From Candidatus Saccharimonadota bacterium (GTDB lineage: Bacteria > Patescibacteriota > Gracilibacteria > UBA1369 > 2-02-FULL-48-14), in contig JBAZVE010000001.1 of assembly GCA_041661045.1 (NCBI GenBank), forward strand, positions 690,001 to 722,000: 32,000 bases of DNA, given 5' to 3'. How positions within the stretch are numbered: position 1 is the stretch's first letter; each line of letters begins with the position of its first letter. Under the pieces are notes generated by a model. It saw only the letters and a program-made list of their open reading frames with translations, was not told where the DNA came from and ran no database searches. Shown one piece after another: positions 1,648 to 15,618 of the stretch. Both the position numbers and the translations under genes were made by a program.

Positions 1648-1692
1648 AGCTGATGTTCGTGTGTTGGTGAACTTGCTTAAATGGTAAAAATT
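1648..1692 (-). repeat. truncated attC-like site (left half only)
   Basis: agctgat-GTTC-gtgtgttggtg-aacttgcttaaatGGTAAAAAtt matches the left box, GKYC bulge, L stem and P2 5' arm with GGTAAAAT bulge of sites E and R. The right half is missing. Confidence 0.5.
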
Positions 1693-1900
1693 AATTTTGC
1701 TCAACGATTGTTAATGCTTTTTCGGCATCTTCTTCTTTACATTGCAGTTGATAGCCACCAAATGCATTTGAAAGTAATGGGTTCGTTCCAATTATTCCTT
1801 CGTTGTTGAGGAAGCATGGAATGCCTTCTGATTCGAGGTGGTTTTTACAGATGTTTGCTTCGTAAGGATCCAAAAAAGTTTTTATTGTGACGAAACTCAT
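1691..1900 (-). CDS. DUF2007-like small protein (putative signal-transducing protein fold)
   Basis: 69 aa. The pattern VTIxTFxDPxEAxxxKxxLEsEGIPCFLxNE resembles the DUF2007 family. Confidence 0.6.
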   Translation of the reverse strand: MSFVTIKTFLDPYEANICKNHLESEGIPCFLNNEGIIGTNPLLSNAFGGYQLQCKEEDAEKALTIVEQN

Positions 1901-2466
1901 TTACTCAGTAACTCAAAGGAGGCAATGATCTCCTGAATTTCTGCATTGATTCCATCTACTTCAGTTGATGGGCTGTAGTTGTAGTAGTAAGTAGCGTCTT
2001 CAGCAATGTATATTCTGTTGCCTTGCGTGACGAGTGGGTCCTCTTTTTCGTTTGCATACGAAATGATTACTTCAAAATAGTGGTTTCCACTAAATTCTGA
2101 TGTAAAGGTATAACTTGCTCGTTGCGGTGGATTGCAACCGAAACCACAATCGGTAAGATTACTTTTTTTCACGCTTACAAATCCCCAAGAAGAAGGAAAC
2201 TGCAGTGAAAATCCTGCACCTTCGTTGAATGTGTCTCTTACAGTAATTACGCTTGCTCCCGCCGTATCTTGATTTACTGATAATGCATAATCGGCCTCCG
2301 TTTCTGGTTCGGCGGAGCTTTCCTCCACAGTTTTCGTTTCATCTTCGATTGTTGGCACTGGAGTTTGGGAGCTTTGCCACCAGTACATCCCTCCGCCGAC
2401 TGCTACAGCCGTAATAATAACTGCGAGTATGACGGGAAGGATGCCTTTGGAATTTTGCTCATTCAT
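1897..2466 (-). CDS. N-terminally membrane-anchored secreted protein, unknown function
   Basis: 189 aa. It has a single N-terminal TM helix ending GGGMYWWQ, then an acidic linker and a soluble domain. It overlaps the downstream ORF by 4 nt. Confidence 0.65.
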   Translation of the reverse strand: MNEQNSKGILPVILAVIITAVAVGGGMYWWQSSQTPVPTIEDETKTVEESSAEPETEADYALSVNQDTAGASVITVRDTFNEGAGFSLQFPSSWGFVSVKKSNLTDCGFGCNPPQRASYTFTSEFSGNHYFEVIISYANEKEDPLVTQGNRIYIAEDATYYYNYSPSTEVDGINAEIQEIIASFELLSK

Positions 2467-2522
2467 GGTTTTATGAGTTAAGAATTATTTCTTGTTGGCA
2501 GTATAGAGGTCAGTGCAATTTT

Positions 2523-2567
2523 GTACAATGTTCGCGACAAAGCGAACCGTTTACCCTGCCGTTAGGG
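2523..2567 (-). repeat. degenerate short attC-like site (Z)
   Basis: gtacaat-GTTC-gcgacaaagcgaac...gcc-gttaggg. The left box and GKYC bulge are intact, there is a 6-bp hairpin gttcgc/gcgaac, and the right box is GTTAGGG. The body is deleted. Confidence 0.35.
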
Positions 2568-2630
2568 GATTAGATCTTGCTATTTCGTGTATAAGTTGTT
2601 AGGTTTGCTTACTAATTTTATTGGCTTCGA

Positions 2631-2933
2631 ATGAGTGCAATAGACATCAAATTCAATAGAGCTGCTACTCTTCATCTGCTTAGTCAAAGACCAAGAACTG
2701 TTCAGGAGCTTTGTGATGCGCTAGTGGATTCTGGAGTTGACGCTCATCGTTCTACTTATCATCGAATTATACAGGAATTAACTCGAGAGGGGTTAATAAC
2801 TCCTGCAGAAGTACTGCCTGCTTCTGGCCGTGGACCTGGATCAATAAGACACGAGCTTACTGCAGCTGGTAAAGAAGAAATTGGTAAGACACGAGCAGCA
2901 ATTGCAGCTGTTTTTATGGGGCCTTTCGCCTAA
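2631..2933 (+). CDS. winged-helix DNA-binding protein (putative transcriptional regulator), cassette-borne, inverted relative to array
   Basis: 100 aa. LLSQRPRTVQELCDAL...STYHRIIQELTREGLI resembles a wHTH (PadR/MarR/ArsR-like) recognition unit. The stop codon lies inside the left box of site A. Confidence 0.55.
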   Translation: MSAIDIKFNRAATLHLLSQRPRTVQELCDALVDSGVDAHRSTYHRIIQELTREGLITPAEVLPASGRGPGSIRHELTAAGKEEIGKTRAAIAAVFMGPFA

Positions 2934-2963
2934 TGTTCGTGAACCTGTTATTCATTGTTGGCT
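2928..2963 (-). repeat. internally deleted attC-like site (A), H/M family
   Basis: gcctaat-GTTC-gtgaa..cctg..ttattcat-T-gttggct. The ends are the same as in sites H and M, but the three-way-junction body is missing. Confidence 0.5.
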
Positions 2964-2979
2964 CTCGTTGCGCTGATTT

Positions 2980-3567
2980 TTATTCAAATTTTAGAGTGGA
3001 CATCATTTCTGTTAGATCATCAGCTGGTGGATCAGAAACTTCATGTATCCCAAGAGTATAAAAAATTACTACTGTACCTTTATTTGCTGCGAAATAGTAT
3101 GTTGTACCGTTCAAATCCTCAAGAATACCTTTTGTAAAATCATTCTCTCCCAAATGTATCTCTTCGGGAGATGTGGTGAGATAGTTGTAGTTTTTACCAA
3201 TATACTCTTCGAGAGTTAAGTCCGTTGTTTCAGATTTCACTCCAATGTTAGGGACCGTGCATGGTGCGATCATGTCACCTGGTGGAAGGGATTCAACAAA
3301 GCCTTCTAGGTCAAAATCAAGACAAGATTCAAATACATCTTGTTCCCACAAACCTTCTTGGGAAGGTGGTGACCACCAATTCTCGTGTGCAACCAGTGTG
3401 CTTGGGTACTCAAATGTAAACCCATTACCTCCCCAAGTATTTATATTTTCATCCTCCGCATCTTCAATTTCGAGAATGGCTTCTCGTTTTTGCCACGAGT
3501 AAATTCCGGCCCCTAAAATTAATGAGACTAAGAGGAGGGAGAGAATGATTTTGCTATATTTTGACAT
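2980..3567 (-). CDS. N-terminally membrane-anchored secreted protein, unknown function
   Basis: The track ORF 2980-3612 is trimmed to the internal ATG at 3565-3567 (MSKYSKIILSLLLVSLILGAGIYSWQ), because the upstream 45 nt lie inside attC-like site B. Confidence 0.65.
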   Translation of the reverse strand: MSKYSKIILSLLLVSLILGAGIYSWQKREAILEIEDAEDENINTWGGNGFTFEYPSTLVAHENWWSPPSQEGLWEQDVFESCLDFDLEGFVESLPPGDMIAPCTVPNIGVKSETTDLTLEEYIGKNYNYLTTSPEEIHLGENDFTKGILEDLNGTTYYFAANKGTVVIFYTLGIHEVSDPPADDLTEMMSTLKFE

Positions 3568-3685
3568 AAGATTTCGCAGTATGCGATATTCACTGGCTGT
3601 ATAATATCGCACGAAGTGCAGTGCAGCCAGTGAATATGGGTGTAGCGAGGTGCAACCGAGCGAAACCGCATACTGCGTGTTGCCA
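3564..3685 (-). repeat. attC-like site (B), left box degenerate
   Basis: L stems are cgcagtatgcg / cgcatactgcg, followed by -T-gttgcca. The P2 arm is cactggctg..cagccagtg with a ..gcacGAAgtgc.. loop. The left box acataag is degenerate and overlaps a start codon. Confidence 0.6.
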
Positions 3686-3705
3686 TAGAATAATTACGCC
3701 AATTT

Positions 3706-3714
3706 TGGTATAAT
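3706..3714 (+). promoter_or_regulatory. extended -10 promoter (TGgTATAAT) for cassette methyltransferase
   Basis: TG-n-TATAAT at 3706-3714, 18 nt upstream of the ATG at 3733. Confidence 0.5.
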
Positions 3715-3732
3715 GAGATAATTAAAATTAAA

Positions 3733-4254
3733 ATGAAACGAATTTTAGAAATAGGGCCGGGCTCGAATCCAATGCACCAAAAACATGGCGAGAATTTGAG
3801 GAAATTAGCACCAAATGAACGCAACTTGTTACTAGAGGAAGGAGAAGATTATACTGCGTTGGAATTACCAAGAGTTGCTTTTAATCACTGGATTTGGCAG
3901 ACCGCGAAAGAAGCATACGGAGATCGTGTGCATTTTGTGCATGGAGATGGAACAGAAATGTCATTTGAGGATGAAAGTTTTGATGAGTTGGTTGCGAACG
4001 GTTCATTTGTTGGTGATGAAAAAACTTTTGCTGAATTTCATCGTGTTTTAAAACAAGGAGGAATTTTGCGTTTGGGAACAAAAGCACAAAATGCACAAAG
4101 AGTAGTGCATGATTGGGCGTATAGACTTGGCAAAATGGGCTTTACCATGGTGGATGAATTAACTCATCGTTATAGGTATACCCATAATAAGGGAGTGATT
4201 GCCAATCTTAGAGGAACTGATTATGTCGTTTTAGTTTTTCGTAAGGAATCCTAA
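3733..4254 (+). CDS. class I SAM-dependent methyltransferase, cassette-borne, inverted relative to array
   Basis: 173 aa. Motif I is ILEIGPG, followed by the acidic post-I ALEL, GDGTEMSFEDESFDEL and LKQGGIL. Confidence 0.8.
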   Translation: MKRILEIGPGSNPMHQKHGENLRKLAPNERNLLLEEGEDYTALELPRVAFNHWIWQTAKEAYGDRVHFVHGDGTEMSFEDESFDELVANGSFVGDEKTFAEFHRVLKQGGILRLGTKAQNAQRVVHDWAYRLGKMGFTMVDELTHRYRYTHNKGVIANLRGTDYVVLVFRKES

Positions 4255-4280
4255 TTGAGCGTCCTGTCAAAATTATTCTA

Positions 4281-4300
4281 TGGCAAAGTGCGTGTTAAGT
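4281..4300 (-). repeat. minimal remnant attC-like site (C)
   Basis: tggcaaa-GTGC-g-T-gttaagt. Both R boxes and the bulge are present with no body. The left hexamer plus 9 more nt (4272-4286) are the exact reverse complement of 3680-3694, next to site B. Confidence 0.5.
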
Positions 4301-4380
4301 GATGTAATTTTTCTGGTTTAATCCTTTGATCTCTAAAAGAAATCACCTTTTAAAGGGAATAAAAATTTGATTTTCCGTCA

Positions 4381-4704
4381 TTATATGTCAATAACTTCAA
4401 CATGATCAGCAATTCCTAGTTCCCATCTTGGGTTAAAATTAGGATCTCCAAAAGTTGCCTGATATCTAGGATCAAGGTCTTCCTCTCCTTGAAAAACAGC
4501 TTGTCCGAGTGTCAAAACTACTAAATCATGTGCTGTGCCAAATACTTCCTCAACGGCAATGTCATATGCTCTTTCAGCACTAACTGGCCATTCTTGTTGT
4601 AATCTTTTGGCAACATTTGGAGCGTTATATCCATCCGTGCCGGCAATGACTTTCATTACGACTTCATCATGTTCACATACCGATACTATTCCTTGTGTAC
4701 CCAT
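4381..4704 (-). CDS. hypothetical protein (cassette ORF)
   Basis: 107-aa ORF, the only long ORF between sites C and D. No recognisable domain. Confidence 0.6.
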   Translation of the reverse strand: MGTQGIVSVCEHDEVVMKVIAGTDGYNAPNVAKRLQQEWPVSAERAYDIAVEEVFGTAHDLVVLTLGQAVFQGEEDLDPRYQATFGDPNFNPRWELGIADHVEVIDI

Positions 4705-4860
4705 GCAAGTGTTAGTTAAGTATTTAGTGGTGTACTGTAGGTTGGAACCGTCGACTCGTCAAGATTAAAATTTATTGTCTAATATGGTTCTATTACAGAA
4801 AATCAAATTTTCGTTTCTTTTTAAAAGTTGACGGGATGGAAAAAGAGAAAAATGTATTTT

Positions 4861-4935
4861 GCCTAATGTCCCTGCGTAGCCAACTTGGGTGAGGGCTTTT
4901 GTAGAAAAGCCCTCACCAGCTATGTAGTGTTGTCG
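4861..4935 (-). repeat. attC-like site (D), short form lacking P2
   Basis: gcctaat-GTCC-ctgcgtagc ... gctatgtag-T-gttgtcg. The body is caacTTGGGTGAG plus a perfect 13-bp hairpin ggtgagggctttt/aaaagccctcacc. The two L-stem mismatches are G.T on the plus strand. Confidence 0.7.
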
Positions 4936-4967
4936 GAAGTATCCAGCTCACTAACTTTTTCAAAACT

Positions 4968-5237
4968 TTAATTTGCTTCTTCGTATTTTTCTAAAAAATT
5001 ATGCATTCTTTTATATTTTTCGTGCACAACAACATCCTCTAGAATTCCTTCAGCTCTTGTCTTTAACAGAATTCGTAAATTTTGAATTATCTGTGGCTGT
5101 ATATTGCCTTCATTGTCTGTTCTAGGTTGTATTTTTGCAAAGACTTCTCCCAAACTAGTCTCACTTAAATGTTCAAGTGCGGCTGCTCTTAACTGAGTCG
5201 GCGTGATTTTTGATGGTGATGTTTCGCCTAGTTCCAT
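4968..5237 (-). CDS. hypothetical protein (cassette ORF)
   Basis: 89-aa ORF. Its last codons and stop lie inside the cassette's terminal inverted repeat. Confidence 0.6.
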   Translation of the reverse strand: MELGETSPSKITPTQLRAAALEHLSETSLGEVFAKIQPRTDNEGNIQPQIIQNLRILLKTRAEGILEDVVVHEKYKRMHNFLEKYEEAN

Positions 5238-5243
5238 TTTTAA

Positions 5244-5271
5244 ATTATATCATATATTTCAAATTTTGCAA
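5244..5271 (-). promoter_or_regulatory. sigma70-like promoter TTGCAA-N16-TATAAT, leaderless geometry
   Basis: On the minus strand the -35 TTGCAA is at 5266-5271 and the -10 TATAAT at 5244-5249. Only 6 nt separate the -10 from the ATG (5237). Confidence 0.5.
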
Positions 5272-5308
5272 ATTAAAGTTTTGAAAAAGAACCAATTCTG
5301 GATATTTC

Positions 5309-5445
5309 GTACAACGGCTGTGCGTTGGTGAAGTTGGACAGTAGTAAAATATACGAAGTGTGACTACTGGCCAACTTGGGTGAGGGCTTTATGGTTGAGC
5401 GAAGCCAGCCTAAAAAAAGACCGAACTGCTAACGCGCTGTTGTAC
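5309..5445 (-). repeat. attC-like site (E)
   Basis: gtacaac-GGCT-gtgcgttgg ... ctaacgcgc-T-gttgtac. P2 is aagttggacagtagt-AAAATAT-acGAAgt-..actactggccaactt, followed by TTGGGTGAG. It contains an exact GCGAAGC. Confidence 0.8.
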
Positions 5446-5492
5446 GATGAAGAAAAAAATGCGTCGCAATTAAAGCACAAATGAATGGCTTT

Positions 5493-5789
5493 CTAGAGGA
5501 GATAGTCAAGGTCAGTGACGAGACTGCCCGTAATGTTCCTAAGTGGTGCCCCCATTTCTGAAGAGGGGTATTTTTCTTGAAACTCAGATAGAGAAGCGTT
5601 TATGACAGGGCCATTTACTGTGAGAGCATATACCACAATGTCATTTTTTCTTCCCAAAATAACAACAGTTCCTCGAGTGCCAAGGTGATTTTTGCCAGTA
5701 AAAACATCTCCTCTTTGTGGGTTGCTCCAGATTTCGTGGGCAATATCTTGAGGAGTTTCTTCATTGCTGGACGCACATGACTCAGCCAT
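5493..5789 (-). CDS. hypothetical protein (cassette ORF)
   Basis: 98-aa ORF, the only long ORF between sites E and F. Confidence 0.6.
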   Translation of the reverse strand: MAESCASSNEETPQDIAHEIWSNPQRGDVFTGKNHLGTRGTVVILGRKNDIVVYALTVNGPVINASLSEFQEKYPSSEMGAPLRNITGSLVTDLDYLL

Positions 5790-5815
5790 TTTGTGATTTT
5801 TTAAATTGTCCTCTC

Positions 5816-5824
5816 ATTATAGCA
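5816..5824 (-). promoter_or_regulatory. extended -10 promoter (TGcTATAAT) for ORF 5493-5789
   Basis: The minus strand reads aTGcTATAATgagaggacaatttaaaaaatcacaaaATG. Confidence 0.45.
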
Positions 5825-5838
5825 TTTTTTCCTTTTTC

Positions 5839-5954
5839 GTACAACGGTCGCAGTATAGCTGAAGTTTATACATGGTAAAATGACCGAAAAGCCAACCAAG
5901 TATAAACTTGGGTGAGGGCTGATCTAGCCCGAACCAGCTATACTGCTGTTAGCT
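5839..5954 (-). repeat. attC-like site (F)
   Basis: gtacaac-GGTC-gcagtatagctg ... cagctatactgc-T-gttagct. It has a P2 with GGTAAAAT, then TTGGGTGAG and a gggct/agccc hairpin, then GAAC. Confidence 0.8.
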
Positions 5955-5962
5955 GATGTTTA

Positions 5963-6274
5963 CTAAATAGATATATCAGTTGGATTTTGTTCCGCATATC
6001 CAAATTTACCTAGGATGTGATTTGCAGCAATCCATAAATCAGAATAATCACCATTAACGATGGCGCTTGTTTCGTCTGGCGATAGATTAGTAACTCCAGT
6101 GGATGCAAAGTCTACTAAAATATCTGTGAGGATTGTATCCTCAGGATGTTCTCTGGCAACATTTAATAATGTGGCAGCGTCAGAGGACTCAGAATGCATC
6201 TTAATGATCTTTGCCAAACCCAAAACTACTTTTTCGTGGGCACTTCGCTTAACTGGTTCGTCATCTATACTCAT
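5963..6274 (-). CDS. hypothetical acidic protein (cassette ORF)
   Basis: 103-aa ORF between sites F and G. Confidence 0.6.
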   Translation of the reverse strand: MSIDDEPVKRSAHEKVVLGLAKIIKMHSESSDAATLLNVAREHPEDTILTDILVDFASTGVTNLSPDETSAIVNGDYSDLWIAANHILGKFGYAEQNPTDISI

Positions 6275-6282
6275 GTCAGTGC

Positions 6283-6309
6283 ATTATAATATATTTCGAT
6301 TGCATGCAA
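6283..6309 (-). promoter_or_regulatory. sigma70-like promoter TTGCAT-N15-TATAAT, near-leaderless
   Basis: On the minus strand the -10 TATAAT is at 6283-6288, 8 nt from the ATG at 6274. The -35 TTGCAT is at 6304-6309. The spacer is 1-2 nt short. Confidence 0.4.
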
Positions 6310-6317
6310 TAAATTTC

Positions 6318-6377: not shown

Positions 6378-6396
6378 GATGTGAATTTTTCTCCAA

Positions 6397-10625: not shown

Positions 10626-10641
10626 GGTGTTGTGCTGATTT

Positions 10642-11154
10642 TTACTTACAATATCCAGTAGACTTGTCATAAGTCTTACCATCGGAGCAGCTGCAACGGG
10701 CATTTAACCAGTCGCCATCCGTTTCCGTACAGTTATTCCCTACGACATCAGTCCAAAAATAATATGCCCCTTCTGGGTTCGGCAAGCCAACAGACACAGC
10801 AAAAGCGGCTCCACCTGGACCGCCGAATGTCGTCTGGCAGTAACCTGTTTTTTTGTCGTACATCATCTCTTGCGTTTGCCTTTCTTCTAGCGGACATTCA
10901 CAAACACTGTCGCTAAATGAACCGCCACTTAATTCACAGTTATATCCAACTAATTCGTCCCATTCATTTGATGAAGTGACTTCAGTTATAGTTTCAGGTT
11001 CGTTTAGTTCTTGCTCTTGGACGGAAACTGATGGCGACTCTTGCGATTCATTCGTTTGCCAAAAGTAAACTCCTCCACCACCAATCAATGCAGCGATAAC
11101 TGCAACGAGTACCATTTTGCTTGTTTGAGACATAAATGTTTTGGTTAAATGCAA
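10642..11154 (-). CDS. Cys-rich membrane-anchored secreted protein, unknown function (cassette ORF)
   Basis: 170 aa. The N-terminal TM helix ends GGGGVYFWQ, followed by an acidic linker. The C-terminal domain has about 10 Cys and a repeated KxTGYC motif. The start may be the internal MSQTSK. Confidence 0.65.
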   Translation of the reverse strand: MHLTKTFMSQTSKMVLVAVIAALIGGGGVYFWQTNESQESPSVSVQEQELNEPETITEVTSSNEWDELVGYNCELSGGSFSDSVCECPLEERQTQEMMYDKKTGYCQTTFGGPGGAAFAVSVGLPNPEGAYYFWTDVVGNNCTETDGDWLNARCSCSDGKTYDKSTGYCK

Positions 11155-11185
11155 ATTTAGCTTACGGGAAAATCAGCGCAATGTC

Positions 11186-11323
11186 ACTTAACGTCCCGCA
11201 CTATGCGAGCTTGTGCAGGTGTAAAATAGCCGAAGGCGGACACCTGTACAAGTTGGGTGAAGGTTTTCAGGCTGCGCGAAGCCAGCCCATCAGAAAACCT
11301 GAACCGCATAGTGCGTGTTATAT
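11186..11323 (-). repeat. attC-like site (P), near-identical body to L
   Basis: acttaac-GTCC-cgcactatgcg ... cgcatagtgcg-T-gttatat. The body matches L almost base for base and contains an exact GCGAAGC. Both R-box hexamers differ from those of L. Confidence 0.85.
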
Positions 11324-11327
11324 GGTT

Positions 11328-11720
11328 TTATTTGCCATCTTCCAAGACGCAATCTGCTTCAATTTCAATCAGCCATTCTGGATTTATAAATCCAGACACT
11401 TCTGCGAAAGTACAGGCGGGCTGTATGTTAGAGAAAAATTCTCCGTGAGCTTTTGCAGCATCTTTCCACGTTTTCATATCTCTTAACAAGATACGTGTGC
11501 GAATTACATCTTCAAGCGAACCGCCGGCTTGCTCGATAACATTTTTGATAATCGTTAGGCAACGTTTCGATTGTTCATATACATTGCCTGGAGAATGAAC
11601 TGAACCATCTTCCGCAATTGGCGCAGTTCCAGTGACAGCGATAAAGTTGCCGATTCTTACAGCCCGCGAAAACCCAATTTCTTTTTCTAACGGCTGATTG
11701 TAAGTGATGTTTTTTCTCAT
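11328..11720 (-). CDS. ridA: RidA/YjgF/UK114 family protein (cassette ORF)
   Basis: 130 aa. FSRAVRIGNFIAVTGTAP...VYEQSKRCLTIIKNVIEQAGGSLEDVIRTRILL...IEIEADC is the typical RidA family pattern. Confidence 0.85.
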   Translation of the reverse strand: MRKNITYNQPLEKEIGFSRAVRIGNFIAVTGTAPIAEDGSVHSPGNVYEQSKRCLTIIKNVIEQAGGSLEDVIRTRILLRDMKTWKDAAKAHGEFFSNIQPACTFAEVSGFINPEWLIEIEADCVLEDGK

Positions 11721-11757
11721 AAATGTTTTTTAAGAGGTAGTGCAGGCAAATAATGCC

Positions 11758-11883
11758 ATATAACGGCTGGGTATAGGCGATGTTGTTGCGCGGTAAAATA
11801 TGCCACGAAGTGGCTCACCGCGCAACAATATGGGAGAACGAAGAAGCGAAGCGACTGAGTGAACCGCCTATACCCTGTTACAT
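11758..11883 (-). repeat. attC-like site (Q)
   Basis: atataac-GGCT-gggtataggcg ... cgcctataccc-T-gttacat. P2 is gttgttgcgcggt-AAAATAT-gccacGAAgtggc-tc-accgcgcaacaat. It is followed by an exact GCGAAGC and GAAC. Confidence 0.85.
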
Positions 11884-12004
11884 GATGTGCATATTTTCCT
11901 TAATTTCTTGAAAAGGAATTCTTCTTTAAAAGAGACTGATTTTGTTTTCTGTTTTGGGCGAGGGCAGAGGGGATTAAGGGGTGAATGCCCGAGCCCAAAA
12001 CTCC

Positions 12005-12832
12005 TCATTCCACGTCTCCTTGCGCTATCCTATTTTGTGCTTCTTGCATTAATTTCTCTGCTTCCTTTTTCATGAGATCATTAATTCTGTCTACTGCATC
12101 CATACTTCCGTTATATCTTTCCATTACTTTCTTATCCCTGAAGTATTTCAGAGTTGTTCCCTCGTATTTCCATACTGTCCAAAGACGATTTTTCATCAGC
12201 TTGAGGTTGTAAACTTTTGCTTCGGCAATGGAGAGGGCATTTTCAATCTTGAGTGAATTTACGAATGTCTCAATCATGGTTATGAATCCGCCAAAATTTT
12301 CGACGAAAGCTGTTCGTTGAGCTGGCGGTCTCATTCGTTCGGGTGTTGCCATTCTCTCATTGCGATCCAGCAACCTTTCAAAGTCATATCGAAATTGTTT
12401 AATATTGCCGTTTGCTGATCTTACCAAGTAATCAGTGATTAAAATTTTGTTGTGAACATAATAACTTTTGAGTCTCATTTTGATCAGATCTTCATCAAAG
12501 TAAATGGCAATGGTTGCTGGGAAATTAGTCTCTTGGATAGCATAAAAATTTGGGTCGGTTACTACTTGAACTTGCTCCACAATTGTTTTTGCTCTGGCAA
12601 TAAAATCTTCAAGCTGACTGACTGCGACAAGTAAATGACTTAATGTTTGAGAAAAAGCTATCTCTGTCCGCCTGATTGCTTCTTTTCTGTTTGATCTCTT
12701 TTGTAGGCACCCTTTAACTAAAAATCCAATAACTGAGAGAATGATTGCTAAAAATGGACCTAGGGCAGAGCCAATTAGCGTTTGCCATTTTTCGATAAAT
12801 TCAGTTGATGTGATTAATTTTAGTGTTTCCAT
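12005..12832 (-). CDS. hypothetical membrane-anchored protein (third gene of three-gene cassette)
   Basis: 275 aa with one TM helix near the N-terminus and a helical/coiled C-terminal part. No recognisable domain. Confidence 0.65.
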   Translation of the reverse strand: METLKLITSTEFIEKWQTLIGSALGPFLAIILSVIGFLVKGCLQKRSNRKEAIRRTEIAFSQTLSHLLVAVSQLEDFIARAKTIVEQVQVVTDPNFYAIQETNFPATIAIYFDEDLIKMRLKSYYVHNKILITDYLVRSANGNIKQFRYDFERLLDRNERMATPERMRPPAQRTAFVENFGGFITMIETFVNSLKIENALSIAEAKVYNLKLMKNRLWTVWKYEGTTLKYFRDKKVMERYNGSMDAVDRINDLMKKEAEKLMQEAQNRIAQGDVE

Positions 12833-12872
12833 TGCTTGTGGATGATACTCTTTTTACCCTATAAAAAACACC

Positions 12873-13508
12873 TTAATTGTATGAGGGAACAGAATGTTCC
12901 CTACAATCATAGTTGCCTTTTATGTTGGCGTTATAGTAACTGCCAAAGGAGGATGCTTTTTGCAGTTCTGCCCAAATTGACTTTGGTGTTTCGCAATAGT
13001 GATAATATTTTCCATTAATGTTCATAATCAAGTAACTGTTGCTTTTGTCGTACCATGCGCCTTCGATGAAAGAGCTTTTTGATGTATTTAAGTATTCAAA
13101 ATATGAACTATCGAGATTAACGGAATCTTTTCGATACTGAACAGCAACGTAATTCTGTTTTGATTGTGAATCTTTTTCGTACTTTTCAAGGCAATCAAAA
13201 AGAATATCGGTCATTAACGATTCTTCTTCGTCTTCAAGCTCGAAGGTCGGATATTCGCCTTGAGAATTTACGAAAGAACCATCTGGTTGAGTTATGTATC
13301 CCTGAGAATTCAGAAATTCATTTCCTTTTTGGGCGGCTTCAGAAAGACAAACGTCATAGAAAGGTGAAGATGTTATCTCCTCAATGGTATTTTTTGATGA
13401 ATTGTCTTGAATATCTGGCCTGAGAACGTAAAACATGAAGCCACCAATAAGAAGTGTCCAAAAGGCAACTATGATTATTATTGGTTTTTTGGAGGAATTA
13501 GTTTTCAT
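12873..13508 (-). CDS. hypothetical membrane-anchored secreted protein (second gene of three-gene cassette)
   Basis: 211 aa with an N-terminal TM helix (PIIIIVAFWTLLIGGFMFYVL) and a soluble domain. Confidence 0.65.
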   Translation of the reverse strand: MKTNSSKKPIIIIVAFWTLLIGGFMFYVLRPDIQDNSSKNTIEEITSSPFYDVCLSEAAQKGNEFLNSQGYITQPDGSFVNSQGEYPTFELEDEEESLMTDILFDCLEKYEKDSQSKQNYVAVQYRKDSVNLDSSYFEYLNTSKSSFIEGAWYDKSNSYLIMNINGKYYHYCETPKSIWAELQKASSFGSYYNANIKGNYDCREHSVPSYN

Positions 13509-13517
13509 AAGTCTGTA

Positions 13518-13781
13518 TCACGTTAAATTAGTAATAATGCCGTAAAGTATAGAAAAAATAATGAAGGAAAAAATAATTCCAAGCTGAATCAGTATGCTTT
13601 TTTTGAGTGGAAATTTGTATATTGCTTCCAAAATTATCCCCAAGGCCAATATCAACGTTAAAACTACTAGCCAAATTATAGAAAAATTAAAATGCCACAT
13701 TAACAGCTCTAACAATATGTAAACAAAAATAATGCCTTGGTTTGTTCTATTATTAAATGTTTTTGTTAGAGCGTTTTTCAT
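13518..13781 (-). CDS. hypothetical small integral membrane protein (first gene of three-gene cassette)
   Basis: 87 aa with 2-3 hydrophobic helices. It lies 9 nt upstream of the next ORF. Confidence 0.55.
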   Translation of the reverse strand: MKNALTKTFNNRTNQGIIFVYILLELLMWHFNFSIIWLVVLTLILALGIILEAIYKFPLKKSILIQLGIIFSFIIFSILYGIITNLT

Positions 13782-13914
13782 GGTTTGTATTATATAGTAA
13801 ATTGTTTTCGGAGCGAAGCGGAGAAAACTCCTTATTTCCCCTCTATAAAACAGAAAACAAAATCAGATCTCATTTTTAAGAATTGGCTTTAGCCAAAAGG
13901 AAAATATGCATTTC

Positions 13915-14036
13915 ATGTAACGTCCGTGTGTTGGCGAAGTTTGGACGTGGTAAAATTAGCACGAAGTGCGTACCACGGCCAAACTTGTGAGAGGCTTTTC
14001 TGGAGGAAAGGCCGAACCGCTAACACACTGTTATGT
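13915..14036 (-). repeat. attC-like site (R), attC of the integrase-proximal cassette
   Basis: atgtaac-GTCC-gtgtgttggcg ... cgctaacacac-T-gttatgt. P2 is gtttggacgtggt-AAAATTA-gcacGAAgtgc-gt-accacggccaaac, followed by TTGTGAGAG, a P3 hairpin and GAAC. Confidence 0.85.
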
Positions 14037-14104
14037 GCTGTTTCATTTTTCATTTGCGACTGAAGGGAGCAAATGTGAGCAAAGTGAACAGAGAAATGCT
14101 TTTA

Positions 14105-14473
14105 CTACTTCCCTTCGATGAGTTCTAGTAAACGACTGCAATATTCTTCAACCGCTTCAGCACCACTAGCTGTTATTGTATCAAAATTCTGTCTAAGTTC
14201 ATTCATGATGGAATCAAAGGCGGCGATAGCCTCAGGGTTGCTTAATTGCATAGCCAGATCTGCTTGATCTTCGTTATATGTGCTACGCAAATACTCTTCG
14301 TAATTACGGAGAAATCTGCGAGGGTTTCCACCTGTATCTTGCCCACTAAAGGCATATTGGATGGCCCCCATCATATTGCGTGCCTGACGATCGAGTTTAC
14401 AGCCTCGAGAAAAATTATTTCTAATAATGTCTAATACATGATCTCTTTGGCTGTCGCCGCCTTCGATACGCAT
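14105..14473 (-). CDS. hypothetical protein (first, integrase-proximal cassette ORF)
   Basis: 122-aa ORF between site R and the attI-like junction. Confidence 0.6.
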   Translation of the reverse strand: MRIEGGDSQRDHVLDIIRNNFSRGCKLDRQARNMMGAIQYAFSGQDTGGNPRRFLRNYEEYLRSTYNEDQADLAMQLSNPEAIAAFDSIMNELRQNFDTITASGAEAVEEYCSRLLELIEGK

Positions 14474-14523
14474 ATTTTTTGGATTAAGTGATTAAAAGCA
14501 TTTCTCTAAAAAATGGAATGGCA

Positions 14524-14760
14524 CATAACTCGTTTCTAACGGAAAACAGTGCGGCTAGCAAGGGGGAATGGGGTGTTTTGGTGAAATGGGGGAGGAGGAG
14601 TGAAGAAACGAGTTGTGGGGAGTGGGGTGACAAAAAGGTGAATTCTGTAAGGAATTTGTCAGGTTTTTGTCATGAATTTGTCAGAAGGGCGGGGTGGGAG
14701 TGGGAAAAATTCAGGAAAGTTTAAGGAAAAATTCAGAAAAAATTCAGGATTTTTTCAGGT
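14524..14760 (-). promoter_or_regulatory. attI-like junction and intI/cassette intergenic control region
   Basis: acataa|c at 14524-14530 is the exact complement of the site R right box gttatgt, and the cassette inverted repeat ends there. Further right lie 2x GAATTTGTCAG (14652, 14674; 22 bp apart), 3x AAAAATTCAGR (14705, 14727, 14738) and a tract of (R)TGGGG runs (14562-14704). Confidence 0.6.
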
Positions 14761-14805
14761 TTGGGCTATAGAGTGGGGGTATTCCTTACTTTTTTACTTT
14801 TACTT

Positions 14806-15618
14806 ATGGAACTCAAAGAAGCTTTGGCCTTAATGGAAAGAGAGCTTCGGCTGAGGCATTACAGCTCTAAAACGGTGAAAAATTACTTAAGATGTGTGGA
14901 GCTTTATTTTTCGGGGAAGAAAAGTTTGGCGTATCGGGAGGAGGAGCTCAAAGGGTTTTTGTTTGGGAAGCTTGAAGCTGGGGCGGCGCCGGAGACGGTG
15001 AATCTTTATCTTTGTGCGGTGAAGTTTTTTTATAAACAATGTTTGCACTTTAAGGGTATTGTGAAAGTTCGTTTTGCGCGAAGAAATGTGCGCTTGCCGG
15101 TGGTGCTTTCGAGGGAGGAGATCCTTAAGATTTTAGAATTTATTCCCAACACAAAGCACCGTTATTTGGTGGCGCTGGCGTATGGGGCGGGGCTGCGCGT
15201 GAGTGAGGTGGTTCGGTTGAGGGTTGCAGATCTTGATTTTGCACGGAAGCTGCTTGTGGTGCGAGAAGGGAAGGGTGGCAAAGCGAGGGTGACGCTTTTG
15301 CCCGAAAATTTGAGGGAAGAGCTGAAGAGTTTTGTTGTGGGGAAAGTGGCGATGGATTTTGTGTTTGAGAGTGAACGGGGTGGGGCTTTGAGTACACGGT
15401 CGGCTCAAAAGGTTTTTGCGGTGGCTTTGGAGAAAACGGGACTGCAGAAAGAGGCTTCGTTCCATTCTTTGCGGCACAGTTTTGCGACGCATTGTTTGGA
15501 AAATGGAGTGGACAGTCGCTTCATTCAAAAACTGCTTGGACACAGTGCCATTCGTACTACAGAAAGGTATACGCAAGTGAGTCAGGTGAGTTTGGCGGGA
15601 ATTCGGAGTCCACTTTAG
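14806..15618 (+). CDS. IntI-like tyrosine recombinase lacking the IntI-specific insertion
   Basis: About 270 aa from the ATG at 14806 (the track starts at TTG 14761). Blocks shared with IntI1 are RLPVVLSxEE, YGAGLRVSE, LRVADLDF, VREGKGGKAR, HSLRHSFATH, LLGHS and ERYTQV, plus the C-terminal GIRSPL. Only about 58 aa separate GKGGKAR from HSLRH, against about 105 in IntI1. Confidence 0.85.
   Translation: MELKEALALMERELRLRHYSSKTVKNYLRCVELYFSGKKSLAYREEELKGFLFGKLEAGAAPETVNLYLCAVKFFYKQCLHFKGIVKVRFARRNVRLPVVLSREEILKILEFIPNTKHRYLVALAYGAGLRVSEVVRLRVADLDFARKLLVVREGKGGKARVTLLPENLREELKSFVVGKVAMDFVFESERGGALSTRSAQKVFAVALEKTGLQKEASFHSLRHSFATHCLENGVDSRFIQKLLGHSAIRTTERYTQVSQVSLAGIRSPL

What the first reader, a model, noticed from the sequence alone, without database searches (positions are those of the whole stretch)
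1648..15618. Integron-like cassette array of about 19 cassettes next to a divergent tyrosine recombinase, in a CPR-like genomic context
Between about 2.5 and 14.5 kb nearly every intergenic gap holds an imperfect palindrome bounded by RYYYAAC (low-coordinate end) and GTTRRRY (high-coordinate end).
- Most full-bodied copies are 106-139 bp and one (D) is 75 bp: sites B, D-F and H-R. Site G is a 60-bp short form.
- Truncated copies are Z, A and C, plus a remnant at 1648.
- The gaps are separated by single short ORFs, and once by three ORFs. Of the 21 ORFs, 17 are on the minus strand.
- Only four have recognisable domains: RidA, a SAM-methyltransferase, a wHTH protein and a lipoprotein signal.
- A tyrosine recombinase gene (14806-15618, +) sits at the proximal end and points away from the array.

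This is the layout of a sedentary chromosomal integron (intI, attI, then cassettes each ending in attC).

By eye the array is more AT-rich than the flanking core genes. That core (short comEC, ackA plus phosphoketolase, SLH/RlpA wall protein, rpmH-rnpA-yidC-jag) resembles streamlined uncultivated lineages. The taxonomic call is inference only.
Basis: partly seen in the sequence, partly recalled or inferred. Interest (0 to 1): 0.9.

Follow-up and report, generated by a model that had tools for sequence, protein, structure and literature searches.

The report
Integron-like cassette array in CPR bacteria
A candidate-phyla (CPR) bacterium carries about 20 single-gene cassettes separated by folding DNA palindromes next to a short tyrosine recombinase. 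The same arrangement recurs across the CPR, so it looks like an undescribed relative of the integron run by an enzyme that lacks the integron integrase's hallmark domain.

Summary

**What is in the window**
- Between 1.6 and 14.1 kb there are 20 related imperfect palindromes: 13 full (about 105-140 nt), the rest short or truncated.
- They separate about 20 cassettes, mostly one orphan ORF each.
- The full sites share one single-strand fold, with 29 of 38 pairs showing compensatory changes.

**Evidence that the cassettes move**
- The bases outside each AAC/GTT core are complementary across each ORF, not across each palindrome. This is the classical cassette-boundary signature.
- A model built only from window sites finds 95 more sites in 80 CPR loci. 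All lie upstream of the homologous recombinase and all on the same strand.
- Two strains with identical recombinases differ by a cassette replacement whose ends fall on the predicted cores.
- MAG contigs often end at the conserved platform site, ATTTC-RYRY-AAC|TCGTTTCTATRCGAA.

**Where it departs from an integron**
- The 270-aa recombinase is closest to VchIntIA and archaeal XerA but lacks the IntI insertion.
- The sites have no extrahelical bases in the L stem.
- Most cassettes carry their own promoter.

No description was found in the searchable literature. Verdict: new variant of a known kind; interest high.

The parts
14806..15618 (+). Tyrosine recombinase, 270 aa, IntI/XerA-like but without the IntI-specific insertion. 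It is transcribed away from the array.
   Evidence: Pfam Phage_integrase plus Phage_int_SAM_4. Best NCBIfam hit is TIGR02249 integron integrase, 194 bits against a cut-off of 265, in two stretches; next is XerA_Arch at 190 bits. Best PDB hit is 2a3v IntI4, where query 178-198 replaces IntI4 182-245. Foldseek top hits are 2a3v, then XerA. The catalytic R131, K156, H220, R223 and H246 are invariant and Y255 nearly invariant in the family alignment.
14515..14620 (+). Platform (attI-like) site. The crossover core is CACATAAC|TCGTTTCTAACGGAA at 14522-14543. Its inverted partner AGAAACGAGTTGTG lies at 14603-14617.
   Evidence: The motif ATTTC-RYRY-AAC|TCGTTTCTATRCGAA was found 48 times on the + strand within 900 nt upstream of recombinase genes, against 4.5 expected. 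The four bases to the left of AAC pair with the far end of the first cassette. The inverted repeat folds with z = -4.2. Contigs of other MAGs start exactly at this AAC.
14625..14805 (+). Recombinase upstream region with short direct repeats (GAATTTGTCAG twice, AAATTCAG/TTTCAGG three to four times). Possibly accessory binding sites or a promoter.
   Evidence: Read from the sequence. TTTCAGG-type repeats recur upstream of the homologues in L006, L009, L010 and L073. Function not tested.
13912..14039 (+). attC-like site R, nearest the recombinase. The + strand is the inferred folding ('bottom') strand.
   Evidence: Model 106 bits; fold z = -6.3.
11755..11886 (+). attC-like site Q
   Evidence: Model 114 bits; fold z = -5.3.
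11183..11326 (+). attC-like site P. Its body is 96% identical to that of site L.
10499..10628 (+). attC-like site O
10076..10195 (+). attC-like site N
9350..9461 (+). attC-like site M. Its body is 92% identical to that of site H.
8895..9039 (+). attC-like site L
   Evidence: z = -8.4.
8473..8584 (+). attC-like site K
8043..8165 (+). attC-like site J
7445..7572 (+). attC-like site I
   Evidence: (121 bits).
6789..6900 (+). attC-like site H
   Evidence: The Logan contig L101 ends inside this site.
6316..6382 (+). attC-like site G, a short form without the central stem.
   Evidence: Weak model hit at 6244-6380 (18.8 bits). The cores were read from the sequence.
5836..5957 (+). attC-like site F. 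It was not used to build the model.
   Evidence: Model 75.6 bits; fold z = -6.8.
5306..5448 (+). attC-like site E
4860..4938 (+). attC-like site D, a 75-nt form lacking the central stem.
   Evidence: Model 26.5 bits.
4255..4300 (+). Site C. Only the right end remains (…GCAAAGTGCGTGTTAAGTG).
   Evidence: Repeat family D14; sequence.
3561..3686 (+). attC-like site B. Its left core is deleted.
   Evidence: Model 57 bits; sequence.
2926..2955 (+). Site A, an internally deleted remnant of about 30 nt (GCCTAATGTTCGTGAA…TTATTCATTGTTGG).
   Evidence: Sequence.
2520..2600 (+). Site Z. The left core and left arm are intact; the right half is degenerate.
   Evidence: Repeat family D7; sequence.
1645..1690 (+). 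Distal-most remnant, the left half of a site with a mutated core. It marks the end of the array.
   Evidence: Sequence. No sites further left in the window or in 9 kb beyond it.
1691..14473 (-). About 20 cassettes with about 23 ORFs of 64-275 aa. Four ORFs are on the + strand (2631-2933, 3733-4254, 6983-7399, 7653-8027). Recognised domains are RidA 11328-11720, KTSC 12873-13508, a methyltransferase 3733-4254, a wHTH 2631-2933 and DUF2007 1691-1900; the rest are orphans. The 75-aa membrane proteins at 8181-8408 and 10213-10440 are paralogues.
   Evidence: ORF list; Pfam. None of the ORFs has a homologue in 88 other fetched loci, whereas comEC does. A perfect TATAAT lies between the core and the start codon in 8 of 14 minus-strand cassettes; 2000 shuffles gave a mean of 1.7 and a maximum of 6.

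Best explanation
This is a chromosomal gene-cassette platform that works like an integron but is built from different parts.

**Components**
- A Xer/IntI-type tyrosine recombinase of about 270 aa, probably the 'Cand' group of simple tyrosine recombinases. Its gene sits next to the platform site.
- A conserved platform site with the layout of a recombinase core site: ATTTC-RYRY-AAC | TCGTTTC | TATRCGAA. In many lineages the platform site is itself palindromic.
- Cassettes stacked on the far side of that site. Each consists of the outer half of a core, usually its own promoter and one ORF, then a 60-145-nt imperfect palindrome.

**Proposed substrate**
On the + strand of the window the palindrome folds into these parts, in order:
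- an R stem (RYRY-AAC/GTT-RYRY);
- an invariant G plus a 3-nt bulge;
- an 11-bp L stem whose distal half carries the same TAT-RNG-AAG as the platform site;
- a three-way junction.

The folded strand therefore imitates the platform site.

**Proposed reaction**
The recombinase cuts and exchanges strands at AAC|N, which is G|TT on the coding strand of the cassettes. Cassettes are excised as circles and inserted at the platform site. This reshuffles a strain-specific pool of accessory genes.

**Shown here**
- The fold and its covariation.
- The exclusive, strand-fixed linkage of the sites to the recombinase gene in dozens of CPR genomes.
- The position of cassette boundaries at the low-coordinate cores.
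- Cassette duplication and strain-to-strain cassette replacement with ends at those cores.

**Inferred, not shown**
- That single-stranded DNA rather than duplex DNA is the substrate.
- That the + strand is the reactive one.
- That this recombinase is the catalyst.
- That resolution needs replication, as in integrons.
For: **Structure**
- In the window, 29 of 38 pairs show compensatory changes.
- Across 101 sites from 43 sources (the window and 42 loci), 93.3% of cells are paired. The shuffled control gives 68.5% and the slid controls 31-42%. 36 of 41 pairs have double changes.
- Single-stranded DNA folds have z = -2.8 to -8.4.

**Linkage to the recombinase**
- A model built from window sites only finds 26 hits in the window and six other loci (L001, L002, L004, L006, L007, L008).
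- It finds 95 hits (E <= 3e-4) in 80 GTDB loci. All are upstream of the recombinase and all on its strand; 0 lie in 618 kb downstream.
- 35 of 41 loci with at least 1.5 kb of upstream sequence have a site.

**Cassette boundaries**
- In the window, the 4 nt outside the cores match across the ORF at 3.56/4, against 2.0/4 across the same palindrome. Over 24 nt the figures are 16.6 against 9.2, permutation p < 5e-5. The test includes the platform core.
- The same holds for 41 site pairs in about 25 other loci (p = 4e-8).
- A duplicated cassette in L001 runs from one AAC|G to the next AAC|G.

**Population variation**
- L089 and L091 carry an identical recombinase and flanks 99.2-99.6% identical. 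A 2264-nt, three-ORF segment in one is replaced by a 1027-nt, one-ORF segment in the other.
- The breakpoints are CAGCTAAC|G of a site and CAAC|TCTTTTTTATACG of the platform site.
- Contig ends fall within 300 nt of the recombinase gene 22 times upstream and 2 times downstream. At least five contigs start at the platform AAC itself.

**Platform site**
- 48 matches against 4.5 expected, mostly 100-160 nt before the start codon.
- It shares TAT-RCG-AAG with the L arm of the palindromes.

**Recombinase**
- The closest solved relatives are VchIntIA and XerA. The catalytic residues are conserved.

**Which strand folds**
- G.T outnumbers A.C by 73 to 32 in the inner stems when read on the + strand.
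- The invariant G after AAC matches the bottom-strand R' feature of canonical attC sites described in PMC2727003.
Against: - **No biochemical or read-level evidence.** No circular junctions were seen, and the catalyst is assigned by linkage only.
- **Alignment bias.** The 101-site alignment was fitted to the model's structure, which inflates the paired fractions.
- **Rough E-values.** The model's calibration was shortened.
- **Weak strand evidence.** The G.T/A.C asymmetry could partly reflect strand-biased mutation and the RNA scoring of the aligner.
- **Duplex alternative not excluded.** The left end of each palindrome is by itself a duplex site resembling the platform site, with a 9-nt rather than 7-nt spacer. 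A purely double-stranded reaction therefore remains possible.
- **Asymmetry on the opposite arm.** The extra unpaired bases lie on the R'-L' arm. Canonical extrahelical bases lie on the R''-L'' arm. Strand choice must work differently, if it exists at all.
- **Not every homologue has an array.** L006 is 52% identical in the family alignment and has neither an array nor the platform motif.
- **Whole genomes could not be scanned.** Exclusivity of the sites rests on about 1.1 Mb of flanking sequence.
Confidence: 0.8

Rival explanations
1. Housekeeping Xer plus dif, with hitch-hikers. On this reading the recombinase is the cell's chromosome-dimer resolvase, as Smyshlyaev et al. assume for the 'Cand' group. 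The conserved site upstream of its gene is the dif site, as in XerS/difSL. The cassettes are small integrative elements that exploit it, like IMEX elements such as CTX phage. The locus would then not be a dedicated adaptive platform.
For: - The platform site has the arm-spacer-arm layout of a Xer core site and sits next to the recombinase gene.
- The protein lacks the IntI insertion and has the Xer-like FESERGG...T motif there.
- The NCBIfam XerA model scores almost as high as the IntI model.
- PMC8138268 treats the CPR group as Xer-related, listed alongside class-specific groups that may compensate for Xer.
- The folded palindrome resembles the folded attP(+) idea of CTX phage. That comparison is from established knowledge and was not tested here.
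Against: - The locus lies near origin-type genes, not near an obvious terminus: rnpA-yidC-jag in the window, dnaA within about 7 kb in L006 and L008.
- The cassettes carry no replication, phage or mobilisation genes, only single accessory ORFs.
- 35 of 41 loci carry sites, so the array is the rule rather than an occasional invasion.
- The two readings are not exclusive. The enzyme could do both jobs.
Confidence: 0.12
2. A canonical sedentary chromosomal integron: a true member of the IntI/attC family that is merely divergent in sequence.
For: - The best NCBIfam, PDB-sequence and fold hits are integron integrases.
- The C-terminal GIRSPL resembles IntI4's GVLSPL.
- The cores are AAC/GTT with a G after AAC, as in attC sites.
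- The layout and the boundary signature are those of integrons.
Against: - The IntI-defining insertion (IntI4 182-245) is replaced by 21 residues.
- The TIGR02249 score of 194 is below the cut-off of 265.
- There are no extrahelical bases in the L stem. The only asymmetry is on the other arm.
- The platform site is palindromic.
- Most cassettes carry their own promoter.
Confidence: 0.05
3. REP/BIME- or MITE-type intergenic palindromes, spread by a transposase and unrelated to the neighbouring recombinase. A REP-associated Y1 transposase would be a candidate, and Y1_Tnp genes occur in L001 and L008. Alternatively, RNA-level elements such as terminators or 3'-UTR stabilisers.
For: - They are structured intergenic palindromes.
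- They lie at the 3' end of most ORFs.
- Y1_Tnp genes occur in two arrays.
Against: - All 121 model hits are on one strand and on one side of the recombinase gene; none lie in 618 kb downstream or in the window's 26 kb of flanks.
- Complementarity of the outer bases runs across the ORFs, not across the palindromes.
- Strain differences and duplications end at the cores.
- G.T pairs favour the strand that is not the mRNA strand of most cassettes.
- One arm of the ORF-flanking inverted repeat lies upstream of the -10 box, so it would not be transcribed.
Confidence: 0.03

Closest known systems
Integrons (IntI integrase, attI, attC cassettes), especially sedentary chromosomal integrons of Vibrio and Xanthomonas
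   Same: - The recombinase gene is divergent from a one-sided array.
- A platform site lies next to the recombinase gene.
- Cassettes consist of one ORF followed by an imperfect palindrome conserved in structure more than in sequence.
- Crossover is at G|TT / AAC, with a G after AAC.
- The inverse core of a cassette matches the core at its own start. This boundary rule is recalled from the integron literature, not from a paper read here.
- Palindromes within one array are similar to each other.
- The content is orphan and strain-specific, and cassette duplications occur.
- The recombinase's closest solved relative is VchIntIA.
   Different: - The recombinase lacks the IntI-specific insertion that reads the extrahelical bases.
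- The L stem has no extrahelical bases. Instead there is a 4x1 unpaired spacer with the extra bases on the R'-L' arm, plus a three-way junction.
- Complementarity extends about 20 nt beyond the cores into the cassette.
- The platform site is core-site-like and often a hairpin.
- Most cassettes have their own TATAAT promoter.
- The host range is CPR/Patescibacteria. IntegronFinder 2.0 does not mention that phylum.
Single-recombinase Xer/dif systems (archaeal XerA/dif, XerS/difSL, XerH/difH) and the 'Cand' group of simple tyrosine recombinases (Smyshlyaev et al. 2021, PMC8138268)
   Same: - A short two-domain recombinase of about 270 aa without an arm-binding domain or the IntI insertion.
- XerA is the second-best solved relative.
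- The site has inverted arms around a 6-8-nt spacer and lies next to the gene.
- The family is CPR-wide.
   Different: - The site is followed by an array of up to 20 cassettes with folding palindromes.
- The locus lies near origin-type genes in several genomes.
- One arm of the site is supplied by whichever cassette is first.
IMEX elements using folded single-stranded DNA, such as the CTX phage attP(+) recombined by XerCD at dif (from established knowledge, not tested here)
   Same: Two inverted core-like sites a few tens of bases apart can fold into a hairpin that mimics the chromosomal target, with a mismatched central region. Integrated elements stack up next to the target.
   Different: The units here are single accessory genes without phage functions. 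They share one palindrome family and occur as a regular feature of the locus.
Acinetobacter pdif modules (from established knowledge, not tested here)
   Same: Small gene modules bounded by Xer-type sites and shuffled between replicons.
   Different: pdif sites are plain 28-bp duplex sites in alternating orientation on plasmids. Here the sites are 60-145-nt structured palindromes, all in one orientation, in one chromosomal array.
REP/BIME elements with RAYT transposases
   Same: Short structured intergenic palindromes.
   Different: REPs are dispersed genome-wide in both orientations. These sites are confined to one array, lie on one strand, and have recombination-type boundaries.

Membership tests
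Integron (IntI/attC/attI) sensu IntegronFinder | The integrase carries the IntI-specific additional domain (the insertion in the catalytic domain, IntI4 about 182-245). | tested here: not met
   The phmmer alignment to 2a3v splits in two. Query 178-198 (21 aa) stands where IntI4 has 64 aa. TIGR02249 scores 194 bits against a cut-off of 265, in two stretches. The Foldseek alignment to 2a3v has about 45 extra columns.
Integron (IntI/attC/attI) sensu IntegronFinder | attC sites are imperfect palindromes with R''-L''...L'-R' boxes, conserved in structure rather than sequence, with RYYYAAC/GTTRRRY cores. | tested here: inconclusive
   R and L stems and strong covariation are present. The AAC/GTT triplets are invariant, but the outer core is RYRY rather than YYY/RRR in most sites. 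The IntegronFinder attC model is not available here.
Integron (IntI/attC/attI) sensu IntegronFinder | Extrahelical bases on the R''-L'' arm of the folded bottom strand, plus a roughly symmetric unpaired central spacer. | tested here: not met
   The L stem is fully paired in all 13 full sites. The only asymmetry is a 3-nt bulge (a 4x1 spacer) on the R'-L' arm. The canonical definition was taken from PMC2727003.
Integron (IntI/attC/attI) sensu IntegronFinder | Cassette boundaries lie in the core. The outer core at the start of a cassette matches its own inverse core, not the adjacent one. | tested here: met
   3.56/4 against 2.0/4 in the window, p < 5e-5. 3.20/4 against 2.08/4 in other genomes, p = 4e-8. 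The duplicated cassette is bounded by AAC|G on both sides.
Integron (IntI/attC/attI) sensu IntegronFinder | An attI site lies next to intI, intI is divergent from the array, and new cassettes enter at attI. | tested here: met
   A conserved platform site lies 100-280 nt upstream of the gene. All sites are on one side. The strain difference lies at the platform-proximal end, with distal cassettes shared.
Integron (IntI/attC/attI) sensu IntegronFinder | Cassettes are mostly promoterless and expressed from a common Pc promoter. | tested here: not met
   8 of 14 minus-strand cassettes have a perfect TATAAT, four of them with a TG extension, between the core and the start codon. Shuffles give a mean of 1.7. 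The two reversed cassettes at 6983-7399 and 7653-8027 have + strand promoter matches. No Pc-like match lies in 14474-14805. These are consensus matches only.
Xer/dif chromosome dimer resolution | One duplex site per chromosome, with 11-bp arms around a 6-8-bp spacer, located at the replication terminus. | tested here: inconclusive
   An arm-spacer-arm layout is present in the platform site. The location is near rnpA-yidC-jag in the window, and dnaA lies within about 7 kb in L006 and L008. Terminus position and copy number per genome cannot be tested with these tools.
'Cand' subgroup of simple tyrosine recombinases (PMC8138268) | A Xer-related two-domain recombinase restricted to candidate phyla. 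| not tested
   The fit is by description only: 270 aa, no arm-binding domain, and all 80 GTDB relatives in CPR-type MAGs. The authors' profiles were not available.
REP/BIME or MITE repeats | Copies dispersed over the genome in both orientations, independent of a neighbouring recombinase. | tested here: not met
   121 of 121 model hits are on one strand and upstream of the recombinase. None lie in 618 kb downstream, in window 15-32 kb, or in 9 kb left of the array. Whole genomes were not scanned.

The most novel reading that the evidence does not exclude
CPR bacteria as a group may carry a sister or precursor of the integron.
- It would be a cassette-capture platform whose recombinase is still Xer-like, with no IntI insertion.
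- Its platform site is still dif-like.
- Its cassette sites are hairpin mimics of that site, without extrahelical bases.

If so, cassette capture through folded DNA either predates the IntI-specific domain or arose twice from Xer/dif. It would also mean that a large, self-expressed accessory gene pool sits at one predictable locus in many of these reduced genomes. That locus is exactly where MAG assemblies break, so the pool has been largely invisible.
Probability: 0.45. Interest if true: 0.95.

Novelty: new variant of a known kind. Interest (0 to 1): 0.86.

Why it matters
- **Origin of integrons.** The IntI insertion and its reading of extrahelical bases are taken as essential for integron function. 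A working cassette platform without either would give a concrete intermediate between Xer/dif and IntI/attC, and would make that step testable.
- **Host range.** Integron surveys report almost nothing outside a few phyla, and none of the papers searched here report one in Patescibacteria. In this analysis 35 of 41 CPR loci with enough upstream sequence carry the sites.
- **Biology of reduced genomes.** CPR genomes are about 1 Mb and epibiotic. A dedicated locus for swapping self-expressed accessory genes would be a main route of adaptation. In related arrays the content includes a CBASS-type nucleotidyltransferase, a restriction-modification system and a HicA toxin.
- **Practical use.** The platform motif and the covariance model locate these arrays. 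They also explain a systematic assembly break in CPR MAGs: contig ends fall within 300 nt of the recombinase gene 22 times upstream against 2 times downstream.

Tried and rejected
**Tests that gave nothing**
- Rfam has no family for the sites. Gathering thresholds over the whole window, and the E-value mode on 11.9-14.8 kb, gave only a tRNA and a chance sRNA hit.
- The strict RYYYAAC/GTTRRRY counts showed little enrichment, which revealed that the real core differs.
- Body similarity of the palindromes next to the two paralogous 75-aa ORFs did not settle which palindrome travels with which ORF. J-N is 66% and K-O is 58%, against a background of 63 +/- 7.5%. The L001 duplication and the L089/L091 comparison settled it instead.
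- The general promoter scan of the array was not enriched (41 against 34 +/- 5). Only the targeted test of the cassette 5' regions was.
- A genome-wide DNA pattern scan for the sites was designed but dropped. Any pattern loose enough to catch most sites would give about 1e5 chance hits in 596 Gb.
- tblastn of all window cassette proteins against 88 other loci found nothing, so no shared cassette could be used to show transfer between genomes.
- Eight literature searches and four papers searched for key terms found no description of integron-like arrays in CPR/Patescibacteria.

**Considered and rejected**
- CRISPR or a tandem array: the units are palindromes separated by ORFs.
- Genetic code 25: long ORFs are intact under table 11.
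- A prophage or plasmid island: core synteny on both sides is conserved in relatives.

Full report
**1. What is in the window**

The ORF map, the repeat search and reading the sequence show one repeat family in almost every gap between short ORFs from 1.6 to 14.1 kb.

Thirteen copies are complete: E 5306-5448, F 5836-5957, H 6789-6900, I 7445-7572, J 8043-8165, K 8473-8584, L 8895-9039, M 9350-9461, N 10076-10195, O 10499-10628, P 11183-11326, Q 11755-11886 and R 13912-14039.

Seven are short or damaged. B 3561-3686 lacks its left core. D 4860-4938 and G 6316-6382 lack the central stem. Z, A and C are fragments. A left-half remnant at about 1645-1690 ends the array.

They separate about 20 cassettes, most with one ORF of 64-210 aa. 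One has three ORFs (12005-13781) and one has two (1691-2466). Four ORFs are on the + strand.

Pfam recognises only a RidA-type protein, a KTSC domain, a methyltransferase, a weak winged-helix and DUF2007. G+C is about 0.34-0.44 in the array against 0.45-0.53 in most of the flank.

The flanks are core genes:
- To the left: TspO in the window, then LytR, a D-Ala-D-Ala carboxypeptidase, a glycosyltransferase, a sigma factor, FBPase and aldolase further left.
- To the right: comEC, a methyltransferase, a tRNA, a DUF4349 lipoprotein, endonuclease III, an SLH-DPBB wall protein, jag, yidC, rnpA and ackA.

The identical recombinase is on record from a 1.32-Mb contig of a MAG labelled Candidatus Gracilibacteria. 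Its relatives are labelled Peregrinibacteria/Peribacteria. Long ORFs are intact under the standard code.

**2. The palindromes have a conserved fold, not just a conserved sequence**

RNAalifold on the 13 full sites gives 38 pairs, of which 29 show compensatory double changes. As single-stranded DNA every site adopts the same architecture, with z-scores of -2.8 to -8.4 against shuffles.

On the + strand the architecture is, in order:
- an outer R stem (RYRY-AAC pairing with GTT-RYRY);
- an invariant G and three unpaired bases that have no partner on the other arm;
- a fully paired L stem of 10-12 bp;
- a 15-bp stem capped by GTAAAAT and a mini-hairpin;
- a third, variable arm (TTGGGTGA...GAAC) on the 3' side.

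The invariant parts are AAC, the following G, and GTT.

**3. The sites belong to the recombinase, in many genomes**

A covariance model was built from 12 window sites only.

- It finds the held-out site F and the damaged B, D and G.
- It finds nothing in window 15-32 kb or in the 9 kb left of the array.
- Its hits in the window and six other loci fetched through the recombinase total 26.
- In 80 loci fetched from GTDB species representatives, again through the recombinase (46-63% identity), it finds 95 sites at E <= 3e-4.
- The 80 loci are CPR-type MAGs: Peribacteria, Nomura-, Komeili-, Uhr-, Falkow-, Kerfeld-, Berkel-, Moran-, Portnoybacteria and Saccharibacteria. A few carry evidently wrong labels.
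- Every hit is upstream of the recombinase gene and on its strand. The loci hold 316 kb upstream and 618 kb downstream.
- 35 of 41 loci with at least 1.5 kb of upstream sequence have a site.
- On 101 sites from 43 sources (the window and 42 loci), 93.3% of pair cells are standard pairs. Shuffles give 68.5% and slid controls 31-42%. 36 of 41 pairs show double changes. The caveat is that this alignment was fitted to the model.

A dispersed REP- or MITE-type family is therefore excluded as far as about 1.1 Mb of sequence can exclude it.

**4. Where the cassettes begin and end**

Integron cassettes have a classical signature. Recombination cuts inside the core, so the outer core bases at the start of a cassette pair with the inverse core at its own far end, not with the core next door.

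This was tested in the window:
- The four bases outside AAC/GTT match across each ORF at 3.56 of 4, with 12 of 16 perfect. Across the same palindrome they match at 2.0 of 4, and unrelated pairs at 1.67.
- Over 24 nt the values are 16.6, 9.2 and 8.1. No permutation out of 20,000 reached the observed value.
- The pairing includes the last unit. The right end of site R matches the bases left of CACATAAC at 14522-14529, which is the core of the platform site.

The same signal holds for 41 consecutive site pairs in about 25 other loci (3.20 against 2.08 of 4, p = 4e-8).

Which palindrome travels with which ORF is settled by two findings:
- A duplicated cassette in the Peregrinibacteria genome CP064962.1 (L001). 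Near-identity runs from just after one AAC|G, through the palindrome and the ORF, to the next ...TTCGCTTAAC|GT.
- The strain comparison in section 5.

A cassette is therefore the ORF plus the palindrome on its low-coordinate side, that is, downstream of the minus-strand ORF. The crossover is at the low-coordinate cores. On the cassettes' coding strand this reads G|TT, as in integrons.

Unlike canonical cassettes, the complementarity continues for about 20 nt beyond the core, with a conserved small mismatch (AAA opposite NTG). The excised circle would therefore carry a much longer hairpin than the array-embedded site.

**5. Evidence that cassettes move**

- **Strain comparison.** The identical recombinase protein P0118 occurs in different samples. 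L089 and L091 are 99.2-99.6% identical on both sides. Between the flanks, 2264 nt with three ORFs in one is replaced by 1027 nt with one ORF in the other. The left breakpoint is ...AATTTCAGCTAAC|G at a model-called site. The right breakpoint is CAAC|TCTTTTTTATACG, 120 nt before the start codon. The distal cassettes are shared, so the difference is at the platform-proximal end.
- **Contig ends.** Contigs end within 300 nt of the recombinase gene 22 times upstream and 2 times downstream. L030, L036, L046, L055 and L074 start at positions 1-3 of the platform AAC itself. That is what an assembler does when the sequence to the left differs among strains.
- **No shared content.** None of the window's cassette proteins has a homologue in any other fetched locus, while comEC does.
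- **Duplications.** Duplicated cassettes occur in L001 and L058.

**6. The platform site**

Upstream of the recombinase genes there is a conserved sequence, ATTTC-RYRY-AAC|TCGTTTCTATRCGAA.

- It gives 48 + strand matches within 900 nt upstream, against 4.5 expected. Most lie 100-160 nt before the start codon; in the window it is 279 nt before.
- Left of the bar is cassette-derived and varies. Right of the bar is constant.
- The layout is that of a tyrosine-recombinase core site: an arm (ATTTCRYRYAA), a spacer of about 7 nt, and an inverted arm (TATRCGAAA).
- It is followed by a short palindrome. In several lineages (L021, L058, L075, and the window at 14524-14537/14603-14617, z = -4.2) a full inverted copy ending in GTT follows, so the platform site is itself hairpin-capable.
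- The L arm of the cassette palindromes carries the same TAT-RNG-AAG, two bases further from AAC. With the 3-nt bulge looped out, the folded palindrome reproduces the geometry of the platform site.

This is the basis for the proposed mechanism: the folded strand presents two recombinase-binding arms around an irregular spacer.

**7. The recombinase**

- It is a 270-aa two-domain tyrosine recombinase with the catalytic R, K, H, R and H invariant and the Tyr nearly invariant across the family.
- The best NCBIfam model is the integron integrase (194 bits, below the cut-off of 265), followed closely by archaeal XerA (190), then XerC and XerD.
- The best PDB sequence match is VchIntIA (2a3v), but in two pieces. 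Twenty-one residues stand where IntI4 has the 64-residue segment that includes the IntI-specific insertion.
- An AlphaFold model (pLDDT 87) finds 2a3v first and XerA second.
- The C-terminal GIRSPL resembles IntI4's GVLSPL.
- The published classification of tyrosine recombinases describes a 'Cand' group of Xer-related enzymes from candidate phyla, listed alongside class-specific groups that may compensate for Xer. It defines the integron group by its catalytic-domain insertion.
- The absence of the insertion goes together with the absence of extrahelical bases in the L stem. In integrons that insertion reads those bases (for the DNA side; the pairing of the two absences is my inference).

**8. 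Which strand, and what is inferred**

The + strand is the likely reactive ('bottom') strand, for four reasons:
- It carries AAC followed by an invariant G, as canonical bottom strands do.
- The crossover cores are the low-coordinate ones.
- G.T outnumbers A.C by 73 to 32 in the inner stems on this strand.
- Two G.T positions are conserved.

This also argues against an RNA role in the cassette transcripts, which have the opposite sense. In addition, one arm of the ORF-flanking repeat lies upstream of the -10 box.

Still inferred are single-strand folding in vivo, strand choice, a single strand exchange resolved by replication, and catalysis by this enzyme. A duplex reaction at the left end of each palindrome is not excluded.

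**9. Expression**

- Eight of 14 minus-strand cassettes have a perfect TATAAT, four of them with a TG extension, between the core and the start codon. Shuffles give a mean of 1.7 and never exceeded 6 in 2000 trials.
- The reversed cassettes at 6983-7399 and 7653-8027 have good + strand promoter matches.
- The cassettes therefore appear self-expressed, unlike the mostly promoterless integron cassettes. These are consensus matches, not measurements.

**10. Comparison and verdict**

The locus works like an integron in layout, boundary rule, platform-proximal variation, structure-defined sites and orphan cargo.

It fails three defining features of the family as currently drawn: the IntI insertion, the extrahelical bases, and promoterless cassettes driven by Pc. 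It shares features with single-recombinase Xer/dif systems and with IMEX elements that fold single-stranded DNA.

The main open alternative is that the enzyme is, or is also, the cell's Xer. That does not remove the cassette platform.

Eight literature searches and four papers searched for key terms found no account of such arrays in CPR/Patescibacteria. The library does not hold most subscription journals, so prior description cannot be ruled out.

I rate it a new variant of a known kind, with high interest. Confidence is 0.8 that it is a recombinase-driven cassette platform of the kind described.

Noticed in passing
window 11930-12000 and 13795-13866; L007 4351-4480: A second repeat type. 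It is a hairpin, TTTTGGGCGAGGGCAGAGGGGATTAAGGGGTGAATGCCCGAGCCCAAAA (fold z = -3.2), together with a perfect 20-nt inverted repeat (11936-11955 / 13847-13866). Both are nested inside the cassette-level repeat and bracket the three-ORF cassette. Two tandem copies of the hairpin occur in the array of another genome (L007). It could be a nested mobile unit or a regulatory element. There is no Rfam match.
   Followed up: partly
window 14640-14760; L006 9700-9740; L009/L010 about 120-200; L073: Short direct repeats (GAATTTGTCAG, AAATTCAG, TTTCAGG) lie between the platform site and the recombinase start. Similar TTTCAGG repeats occur upstream of homologues, including L006, which has no array. They may be accessory binding sites or promoter elements.
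   Followed up: no
window 14500-16500: There is a very strong G-over-C skew (0.39-0.45) on the coding strand of the recombinase and the start of comEC. This is far above the rest of the window, whose cumulative skew rises throughout without a turning point.
   Followed up: no
L009 171-584 and L010 2-631 (same as L002/L004): In the two closest Peribacteria relatives, an extra ORF (137 or 209 aa, no Pfam hit) lies between the platform site and the recombinase gene. It is co-oriented with the recombinase and is absent from the window.
   Followed up: no
L001 1700-4450, 7150-7950, 8830-9270: The array of Peregrinibacteria CP064962.1 is invaded by insertion sequences (rve, DDE_Tnp_1, a Y1_Tnp gene). 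It also holds a HicA toxin with a small upstream partner, as large chromosomal integrons often hold toxin-antitoxin cassettes.
   Followed up: no
L007 (= L029, OY970195.1) 2600-9500: This stretch runs from the distal model-called site to the recombinase. Upstream of the proximal site's position it holds a CBASS-type SMODS gene with a partner, a LexA-like repressor, a DNA methylase and a SacI-type restriction enzyme. A DUF488 gene and murB are bracketed by the two palindromes. The upstream region therefore holds defence genes, and an apparently core gene sits between sites.
   Followed up: no
L006 9780-9860: The homologue without an array or platform motif lies just downstream of what looks like the 3' end of a tmRNA or tRNA gene (GGTTCGACTCCCC...CCACCA). 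Its neighbours were the same on all 23 contigs read. The family therefore includes members with a different, possibly ordinary integrase or Xer, role.
   Followed up: partly
window 8181-8408 and 10213-10440: Two cassettes encode paralogous 75-aa two-helix membrane proteins (72% DNA identity), separated by four other cassettes.
   Followed up: partly
L020-L022, L032, L052, L054, L063, L071, L074, L078, L080, L082, L085: Several GTDB MAGs are titled Gammaproteobacteria, Pseudomonadales, Bdellovibrionales or Actinomycetota, yet they carry this CPR-type recombinase. Several of them also carry the platform motif or the palindromes. The record titles are probably wrong, or the contigs are mis-binned.
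   Followed up: no
L101 1-43 (Logan SRR18595301), equal to window site H: An independent assembly of the same organism breaks inside site H, which is 92% identical to site M. This is a repeat-induced break, showing how these arrays fragment short-read assemblies.
   Followed up: yes
window 18548-18619: A tRNA gene (62 bits). It is the only Rfam family reaching its gathering score in the window.
   Followed up: no
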